DNA from: Dimargaris cristalligena
Taxonomy: Eukaryota
Length of the DNA: 36,439 bases
NCBI GenBank assembly: GCA_003614675.1
Contig: ML002374.1
Location: 1-36,439, forward strand
Reading direction: 5' to 3'
Below are positions 2,045-3,383 of the stretch, one piece after another; position 1 is the first letter of the stretch, and each line of letters opens with the position of its first letter. The notes under the pieces were generated by a model. That model was not told where the DNA came from, did no database searches, and was given only the letters and a program-made list of their open reading frames with translations. The position numbers were made by a program, and so were the translations under genes.

Positions 2045-3383
2045 CTATGGCATACCGCCGTAGTAAACGTGGTGGACATCCACCAGCTTCTTGCCCCGGG
2101 CCATGGCGATTTACCCGGGAGTACGCTGAGTCTGCAGGGCCTCAAACATTCCCTTGATGACGTTCATGGGGTTACGTGATCCGTTCACCTTACCGGCAAT
2201 ATCCTCAATACCGGCACAGTAGCAAATTTCGTAGAGGTAAGGGTTGACGCGCTTCCCAAAGCCGGGTGGGCGGGCAAAGAGGTCAATATGGGTCGCCTTA
2301 AACTTGTGCTTAATGTCATGGAAAATCGTCCGGTTGTCGTACCGGGGGATAAACTCCATCGCCTTGATGGCCCGAACGGTTGCCTTACGCACGGCATCGG
2401 CCACTTCCTCGCTCTTGGCCTCTCCGTAGCCAGCGGCCCCTTCGCCGTTACCCACCACTACCAGTGCGTACATACTGGGCATCTTACCCTTTCGGGTCAT
2501 GTTGGACGTGCGGCGAACGTGCAGCACTCGCTTCTTGAGCCGCTGGAACTGCTTCATCGAAATACCCATGCTCTCCGACCATAAAAGTTCATCCTCTTGG
2601 AATACCACAGAGATATTACCCATGTCCCTCTGGCTGGGTGTGGGGATCGTCAGCATTTCGATCATGGGCGAGGTGCCCGCCTTGCGGGTGTGGTCTCCGT
2701 GCCAGAGGTTTTCTCCCTTACCGGCCAATTCAGCAACCGTCGGCTCATCTTTAGAGGCAGCGACAGGTGCCTTAGGGGTACTAGGCTCCGCGGCCGACTC
2801 AATGGGGGTTTTATCCGTAGGTTCATTGAAAGCCGGGCGAGAAGTGATAAGGGTTCGGGAGGTCGGCACTAGGAATCTGGGGGTGGCAGTGGCCGCTTTA
2901 AATGTAAAATATATGATTTTTGAAGATACGTTGATATACAAATATAAATAATGTTAGTATATCAGATTGGGGTTAGATAGTTATGGTTACGGCGGTATGA
3001 TATTCATAGTACAATATGAGCAGTACCGGTGGTAGAGGCCAAGTCCATTTGGTCGAATTGAACAATGCCGCATGTTCATCAGTATTTCGATAAAATGTTA
3101 TTATAGAGCAGCCATTCCTAGCCCCGCGAATAGCATATGATTATACTATTATCGATTTTCACATGTAAGGCATCGATTTCGCGTTCGAGGACCGGATCGA
3201 GGCAAAATCCGGATTCACCGCGGCAACGGGGAATCCTCAGCACATCGTCTGCGATTCATAGACACCGTCTAGTATATAAGCCTGCGAAAGTTGGGGTATT
3301 TACTTACCGATCCGACCCATGGGAAGGGCCCGGGACTGATATGGCAGGGATCGGGCTAGAAGTGCGGAATTCAAACGGAACAT
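2045..3383 (-). CDS. MRPS5: Mitochondrial small-subunit ribosomal protein uS5m, 2 exons, with an in-frame TAA at 2111-2113
   Basis: Exon 1 is 3383-3308: GCCGCCATG context, MFRLNSALLARSLPYQSRALPMGRI (Arg/Ser/Leu-rich presequence), donor GTAAGT. Exon 2 is 2895-2045, with branch TACTAAC at 2959-2953 and phase 1 matching. S5 motifs: VRRTSNMTRKGK, ALVVVGNGEGAAGYGEAK, RPPGFG, GSRNPMNV. The conserved tail IAMARGKKLVDVHHVYYGG follows the internal TAA and ends at TAG 2047-2045. Confidence 0.92.

What the first reader, a model, noticed from the sequence alone, without database searches (positions are those of the whole stretch)
2045..2113. In-frame TAA interrupts the conserved C-terminus of MRPS5
Seen: ...CAG CGT ACT CCC GGG TAA ATC GCC ATG GCC CGG GGC AAG AAG CTG GTG GAT GTC CAC CAC GTT TAC TAC GGC GGT ATG CCA TAG, i.e. 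QRTPG*IAMARGKKLVDVHHVYYGGMP*. Known: fungal uS5m proteins end in roughly Q..PE(E/D)IARARGKK.VDV..VYY, so the 21 codons after the stop look fully constrained, and the stop sits where an acidic or Gln residue is expected (one change from GAA or CAA). The rest of the gene is intact. Options (inference): sequencing/amplification error, a recent nonsense allele, stop readthrough, U-to-C RNA editing, or context-dependent UAA decoding. Wholesale UAA reassignment is unlikely because RPS24 terminates at TAA in its canonical position.
Basis: partly seen in the sequence, partly recalled or inferred. Interest (0 to 1): 0.75.

Follow-up and report, generated by a model that had tools for sequence, protein, structure and literature searches.

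The report
Assembly base error in fungal MRPS5
The stop codon that seems to cut the end off a fungal mitochondrial ribosomal protein gene is one wrong or private letter in this assembly, because public sequencing data of the same organism read an ordinary glutamate codon there.

Summary
On the minus strand a TAA (2113..2111) sits 21 codons before the TAG that ends the uS5m/MRPS5 gene. Those 21 codons align with the C-terminus of 19 of 19 fungal homologues and of solved mitoribosome chains.

The TAA is not in the organism's sequence data. I laid contigs from four public DNA runs on window 1800-3500. Three come from the sample that may be the source of this DNA, and one comes from a second sample and study. 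All four read C instead of A at plus-strand position 2113, which makes the codon GAA (Glu). For the three possible-source runs this is the only difference in 1701 bases. Glu fits the acidic or Gln column of the alignment.

The change is a G-to-T transversion on the coding strand, the class known from oxidative library damage.

Nothing supports recoding. RPS24 in the same window ends at TAA at its normal end, and the window holds no tRNA gene.

Verdict: a base error or private variant in the record, not a real feature. The scan has met similar single in-frame TAA cases on other DNA.

The parts
3308..3383 (-). uS5m (MRPS5) exon 1: ATG at 3383..3381, 25 codons plus 1 base, followed by a GTAAGT donor
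   Evidence: Sequence and in-frame join computed. The splice sites are inferred from consensus, not from RNA.
2896..3307 (-). Intron of 412 nt, AT-rich, GTAAGT...TTTAAAG, with a TACTAAC-like branch site upstream of the acceptor
   Evidence: The intron is inferred. No RNA run was listed.
2045..2895 (-). uS5m exon 2, carrying the Ribosomal_S5 N- and C-terminal domains and ending at TAG 2047..2045
2111..2113 (-). In-frame TAA of the record. Contigs of 4 of 4 laid DNA runs read GAA (Glu) here.
   Evidence: table 3: place 2113, A in the window and C in X5, X1, X2 and X3. Codon effect TAA to GAA.
2113..2113 (.). The single discordant base: plus-strand A in the window against C in the runs, which is T against G on the coding strand
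   Evidence: It is the only difference between the window and X1, X2 and X3 over 1800..3500 (other_letters 1, gaps 0).
2048..2110 (-). The 21 codons after the TAA (IAMARGKKLVDVHHVYYGGMP), the normal conserved C-terminus of uS5m
   Evidence: The second strain X5 keeps this frame with one conservative change, V296I.

Best explanation
The TAA is a single-base error, or a variant private to this deposited record, in an otherwise ordinary and intact nuclear gene for the mitochondrial small-subunit ribosomal protein uS5m. The host is a fungus whose closest named relatives are Dimargaritales (Kickxellomycotina). The organism's real codon is GAA (Glu), and the protein ends normally 21 residues later at TAG. 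No special decoding is involved. The discordant letter is a G-to-T transversion on the coding strand (C-to-A on the plus strand). That class of change is typical of oxidative (8-oxoG) library damage and similar artefacts. How the letter entered the consensus is inferred, not shown.
For: Shown:
(1) Contigs of X1, X2 and X3 (one sample, a possible source of this DNA) and of X5 (a second sample and study, same coded organism) each cover window 1800-3500 in one piece. All read C at 2113 where the window has A, at word depths of 64, 41, 88 and 193.
(2) This turns TAA into GAA, Glu.
(3) It is the only difference between the window and X1-X3 in 1701 bases (tables 1, 3, 8).
(4) X5 differs at 7 further places. 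Six lie in exon 2: 3 synonymous changes plus V296I, M97I and T31A. X5 is therefore another strain, and it also carries GAA and an open tail.
(5) In 19 of 19 aligned homologues the column holds D, Q or E. Solved yeast uS5m has E there and Neurospora uS5m has D.
(6) RPS24 in the same window ends at TAA aligned to the last residue of a solved eS24 chain, 133 of 133, so TAA acts as a stop here.
Inferred:
It shows the same word share (0.97) as X1-X3, as expected if it also lacks the words that span the window's A.
(8) C>A/G>T artefacts from DNA oxidation during library preparation are described in PMC3616734 (abstract read).
Against: All four runs were available only as Logan contigs, not raw reads. 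Contigs drop rare variants, so they show that GAA is the main sequence but not that TAA is absent from every read or nucleus (header). The A must have come from somewhere, and I could not see where. The oxidative-damage origin rests only on the kind of substitution.
Confidence: 0.88

Rival explanations
1. A real but minor nonsense allele. Some nuclei or cells of the sampled culture carry GAA>TAA in MRPS5. The assembler picked that allele, while the majority allele GAA dominates the contigs of each run. In a coenocytic fungus, wild-type nuclei could shelter such a null or truncating allele.
For: The record does carry A at 2113. Contigs cannot exclude a minority variant (header). The tail after the TAA shows no decay, as expected for a very recent event.
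Against: 3 of 3 laid runs of the possible source sample give GAA as their single path through the site, with no second contig and no loose end (tables 7 and 8). The second strain has GAA too. An assembler choosing a minority allele is unusual.
Confidence: 0.09
2. The TAA is genomic and is decoded or bypassed through programmed readthrough, context-dependent UAA sense decoding or U-to-C RNA editing, so that the full-length uS5m is made.
For: Only that the 21 codons after the TAA are fully conserved. The error explanation accounts for this equally well.
Against: The majority DNA of 4 of 4 laid runs has GAA, so there is no stop to decode. 19 of 19 homologues have a sense residue at the column. 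RPS24 ends at TAA at its canonical end. No tRNA gene lies in the window (weak evidence because only 36 kb was scanned). The base after the stop is A, and UAA-A is recalled, not tested here, as a strong termination context in eukaryotes. A passage search of the Kickxellomycotina genome paper PMC9866270 found no use of 'genetic code', 'stop codon' or 'readthrough'.
Confidence: 0.01
3. A fixed truncating mutation in this strain: uS5m really ends at ...QRTPG and the tail is freshly dead sequence.
For: This is the literal reading of the record.
Against: Contigs from the same sample read GAA. The stop falls inside the Pfam S5_C domain match, residues 216-286. It would also remove a tail that is invariant at six positions in the query and 19 fungal proteins.
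Confidence: 0.02

Closest known systems
Fungal mitochondrial ribosomal protein uS5m (MRPS5). Nearest sequences are from Dimargaris xerosporica, D. verticillata, Tieghemiomyces parasiticus and Dispira parvispora. Solved chains are 6yw5_EE (Neurospora), 8d8j_E and 5mrc_EE (yeast).
   Same: Both Pfam domains, S5 N and S5 C, are present. Identity to the four Dimargaritales proteins is 57-62%. The C-terminal tail ...RGKKLVDVxxVYYGG is shared with all aligned relatives and with the solved chains.
   Different: Only the single TAA in this record, which the sequencing runs do not carry. The N-terminal presequence region is poorly conserved, as it is among the relatives.
Consensus base errors of the G:C>T:A class in genome assemblies, for example oxidative 8-oxoG library artefacts (Costello et al. 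2013, PMC3616734, abstract read)
   Same: A single G>T change on the coding strand, which turns a Glu codon into TAA. It is private to the record and absent from the contigs of the runs.
   Different: That paper describes artefacts at low allelic fraction in reads. Here the letter reached a consensus, and the route is unknown. I saw no raw reads, so read-orientation bias could not be tested.
Programmed stop-codon readthrough and stop-codon reassignment in eukaryotes
   Same: The appearance only: an in-frame stop followed by a conserved, open continuation of the frame.
   Different: The stop is not in the majority DNA. It is not shared by relatives. TAA ends another conserved gene in the window at the normal place.

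Membership tests
uS5m / MRPS5 (mitochondrial ribosomal protein S5) | Ribosomal_S5 N-terminal (PF00333) and C-terminal (PF03719) domains above Pfam cut-offs | tested here: met
   83.9 bits against a cut-off of 27.1, and 77.1 bits against 21.5.
uS5m / MRPS5 (mitochondrial ribosomal protein S5) | Best matches are mitochondrial rather than cytosolic or bacterial S5, with the fungal mitochondrial C-terminal tail | tested here: met
   the top named hits are labelled mitochondrial S5; the best solved chains are the mitoribosomal uS5m of Neurospora and yeast, aligned through to residues 298-300 of 302.
Programmed stop-codon readthrough / recoding site | The stop codon is truly present in the organism's genomic DNA | tested here: not met
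   4 of 4 laid runs read C at 2113, giving GAA. Contigs only; raw reads were not seen.
Programmed stop-codon readthrough / recoding site | The stop is conserved at the same place in relatives or other strains | tested here: not met
   0 of 19 homologous proteins end at this column; all continue through the tail; the second strain X5 has GAA.
Stop-codon (UAA) reassignment | TAA is not used as a terminator at conserved gene ends | tested here: not met
   the RPS24 frame ends at TAA (7565..7563), aligned to the last residue of solved eS24 chain 9eho_ZZ (133 of 133).
Stop-codon (UAA) reassignment | A tRNA with a UUA anticodon in the genome | tested here: inconclusive
   0 tRNA genes in the 36-kb window. 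No whole genome is held.
Assembly or consensus base error | The variant is private to the record and absent from the main sequence of the source sample's own runs and of other strains | tested here: met
   it is the only difference from X1, X2 and X3 in 1701 bases, and X5 also lacks it.
Assembly or consensus base error | The variant is at or below the error rate in raw reads of all libraries | not testable with these tools
   The runs are held only as contigs.

The most novel reading that the evidence does not exclude
The TAA is a real minority allele. A fraction of nuclei in this coenocytic mycoparasite-like fungus would carry a fresh nonsense mutation in an essential mitoribosomal gene, sheltered by wild-type nuclei, and the assembler happened to pick it up.
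Probability: 0.08. Interest if true: 0.2.

Novelty: not a real feature. Interest (0 to 1): 0.04.

Why it matters
It matters only for housekeeping. The record carries a wrong or unrepresentative base that turns an intact essential gene into an apparent truncation. That would shorten or drop the gene model in annotation, and it could be mistaken for recoding. The case also shows that an in-frame stop with a perfectly conserved continuation should first be checked against the sequencing runs. Nothing new about translation follows from it.

Tried and rejected
- Whole-genome search for a second MRPS5 copy or a suppressor tRNA: no genome is held for this window, so this is untested.
- RNA evidence: no RNA holder was listed for window 2000-3400, so expression and editing could not be examined.
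- A short intron that removes the TAA: rejected. The codons on both sides of the TAA align without a gap to homologues. I read the nearest AG after the GT of GGGTAAAT as only about 20 nt downstream, by eye.
- Readthrough survey of the window: I listed frames opened by reading TAA, TAG or TGA through. It gave similar numbers of hits for all three stops and nothing informative. Several apparent TAA ends are GTAAGT splice donors.
- Pfam on 20 ORFs across two scans: 4 of 20 had families (polysaccharide deacetylase, cullin, Rif1_N, UCH). None of these four long ORFs is interrupted by a stop.
- Notes of this scan on this genome: none.
- Same-species protein: the protein search found none. The best hit is 58% identical, so I could not compare with an annotated gene model of the same organism.
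- Literature: a passage search of PMC9866270 for 'genetic code', 'stop codon' and 'readthrough' gave 0 occurrences. I ran no wider literature search on alternative codes in Kickxellomycotina, and supplements were not seen.

Full report
**What is in the sequence**

The gene lies on the minus strand. Read that way, window 2140..2045 gives ...CAG CGT ACT CCC GGG TAA ATC GCC ATG GCC CGG GGC AAG AAG CTG GTG GAT GTC CAC CAC GTT TAC TAC GGC GGT ATG CCA TAG. The TAA occupies 2113..2111 and the closing TAG occupies 2047..2045. With X at the TAA, the long exon translates to a 302-residue string ending ...QTQRTPGXIAMARGKKLVDVHHVYYGGMP (P0001).

**What the gene is**

- Pfam finds Ribosomal_S5 (residues 139-203, 83.9 bits) and Ribosomal_S5_C (residues 216-286, 77.1 bits). 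The C-terminal domain match runs across X281.
- The large protein search gave 174 proteins at E <= 0.001. The best four are labelled mitochondrial S5 of Dimargaris xerosporica, D. verticillata, Tieghemiomyces parasiticus and Dispira parvispora, at 57-62% identity. The window therefore comes from a fungus whose nearest named relatives are Dimargaritales (Kickxellomycotina). No protein of the same species was found.
- I aligned the query with 19 of the 120 listed hits, chosen to span fungal groups. The 21 residues after the stop align in all 19. A283, R286, G287, D292, Y297 and G299 are invariant. X sits in a column holding D, Q or E, after a column that is mostly E.
- Solved mitoribosome chains of Neurospora (6yw5_EE) and yeast (8d8j_E, 5mrc_EE) align through X to residues 298-300 of the query, with D or E opposite X.
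- The rest of the gene is whole. Exon 1 (3383..3308, MFRLNSALLARSLPYQSRALPMGRI plus one base) is followed by a 412-nt GTAAGT...AG intron (3307..2896) and exon 2 (2895..2045). Together they make 927 nt in one frame. The splice sites are inferred from consensus, and no RNA run was listed.

**The decisive test**

The run search with window 2000-3400 listed five DNA runs of one coded organism. X1-X4 come from one sample that may be the source of this DNA. X5 comes from another sample and study. I laid X5, X1, X2 and X3 on window 1800-3500.

- Each run covers the whole stretch with one contig, at word depths of 193, 64, 41 and 88.
- At plus-strand place 2113 the window has A and all four runs read C.
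- For X1, X2 and X3 this is the only difference in 1701 bases (other_letters 1, gaps 0).
- On the coding strand the change turns TAA into GAA, Glu. Glu is one of the residue types seen at that column.
- X5 has seven further differences, so it is a distinct strain. Six fall in exon 2: three are synonymous and three are V296I, M97I and T31A. The seventh, at 3341 in exon 1, was not translated. X5 also reads GAA, and its tail stays open with one conservative change.
Its word share (0.97) equals that of X1-X3. That is what one discordant base would give, so it probably lacks the A as well. This is an inference.

**Limits of that test**

All four runs are held as Logan contigs, and contigs drop rare variants. 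They show that GAA is the main sequence in both samples. They do not show that no read or nucleus carries TAA. I also could not see which data put the A into the record.

**How it most likely came about**

The discordant letter is G-to-T on the coding strand (C-to-A on the plus strand). This is the substitution class described for oxidative 8-oxoG damage during library preparation (PMC3616734, abstract read). I assign the origin from the substitution type only. A polishing or consensus fault, or an amplification error in one library, would look the same. Earlier notes of this scan describe similar single in-frame TAA or TAG codons, on other DNA, that were judged to be G-to-T errors or private variants. 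I used those notes as leads only.

**Rivals**

1. A real minority nonsense allele that the assembler picked up. This is not excluded by contigs but is unlikely, because three runs of the possible source sample each give GAA as their single path, with no loose ends. I put it at about 9%.
2. A fixed truncation in this strain. The same-sample contigs contradict it. About 2%.
3. Readthrough, RNA editing or context-dependent UAA decoding. The majority DNA has no stop to decode. In addition, 0 of 19 homologues end at this column. RPS24 in the same window ends at TAA (7565..7563), aligned with the last residue of a solved eS24 chain. The window holds no tRNA gene (weak evidence). About 1%.
4. A tiny intron removing the TAA. 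This is rejected because both flanks align to homologues without a gap.

**Comparison with what is known**

The gene is an ordinary member of the uS5m family, and both defining domains and the mitochondrial-type tail were tested and met. It is not a member of any recoding class. The first defining feature, a stop in the genomic DNA, was tested and not met. A passage search of the Kickxellomycotina genome paper PMC9866270 found no mention of 'genetic code', 'stop codon' or 'readthrough'. I ran no wider literature search on alternative codes in this group.

**Verdict**

- The feature is not real biology.
- Interest is 0.04.
- The most novel reading still open is a sheltered minority nonsense allele in a coenocytic fungus (probability about 0.08, interest 0.2 if true).

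Noticed in passing
window 2896..3307 (- strand): The inferred intron of the uS5m gene is 412 nt and strongly AT-rich, inside a window of 51% G+C. From recall, that is long for a fungal intron. It has a GTAAGT donor and a TACTAAC-like branch site about 55 nt before the AG.
   Followed up: partly
window 22905..22910 (- strand): A 130-codon ORF (22911..23300) and a 452-codon ORF (21549..22904) lie in the same frame, separated only by TAA TAG. The context TTATTTTTTAATAG looks like a polypyrimidine tract plus a splice acceptor, so this is probably an intron end rather than a broken gene. Neither ORF has a Pfam family.
   Followed up: partly
window 10341..28359: Neighbouring genes recognised by Pfam: polysaccharide (chitin-type) deacetylase at 10341..11228 (+), cullin at 12780..15374 (-), a Rif1_N-containing ORF at 19011..20759 (-), and a 1280-codon ubiquitin C-terminal hydrolase ORF at 24520..28359 (-). 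None of these four ORFs is interrupted by a stop.
   Followed up: no
window 7563..7760 (- strand): The last exon of cytosolic ribosomal protein eS24 (RPS24) ends ...AAGKDKK then TAA, at the normal C-terminus.
   Followed up: yes
window 16989..18185, 30255..31262 (-) and 33408..34634 (+): Long ORFs of 399, 336 and 409 codons have no Pfam family at E <= 0.001. They may be lineage-specific proteins or exons of larger genes.
   Followed up: no
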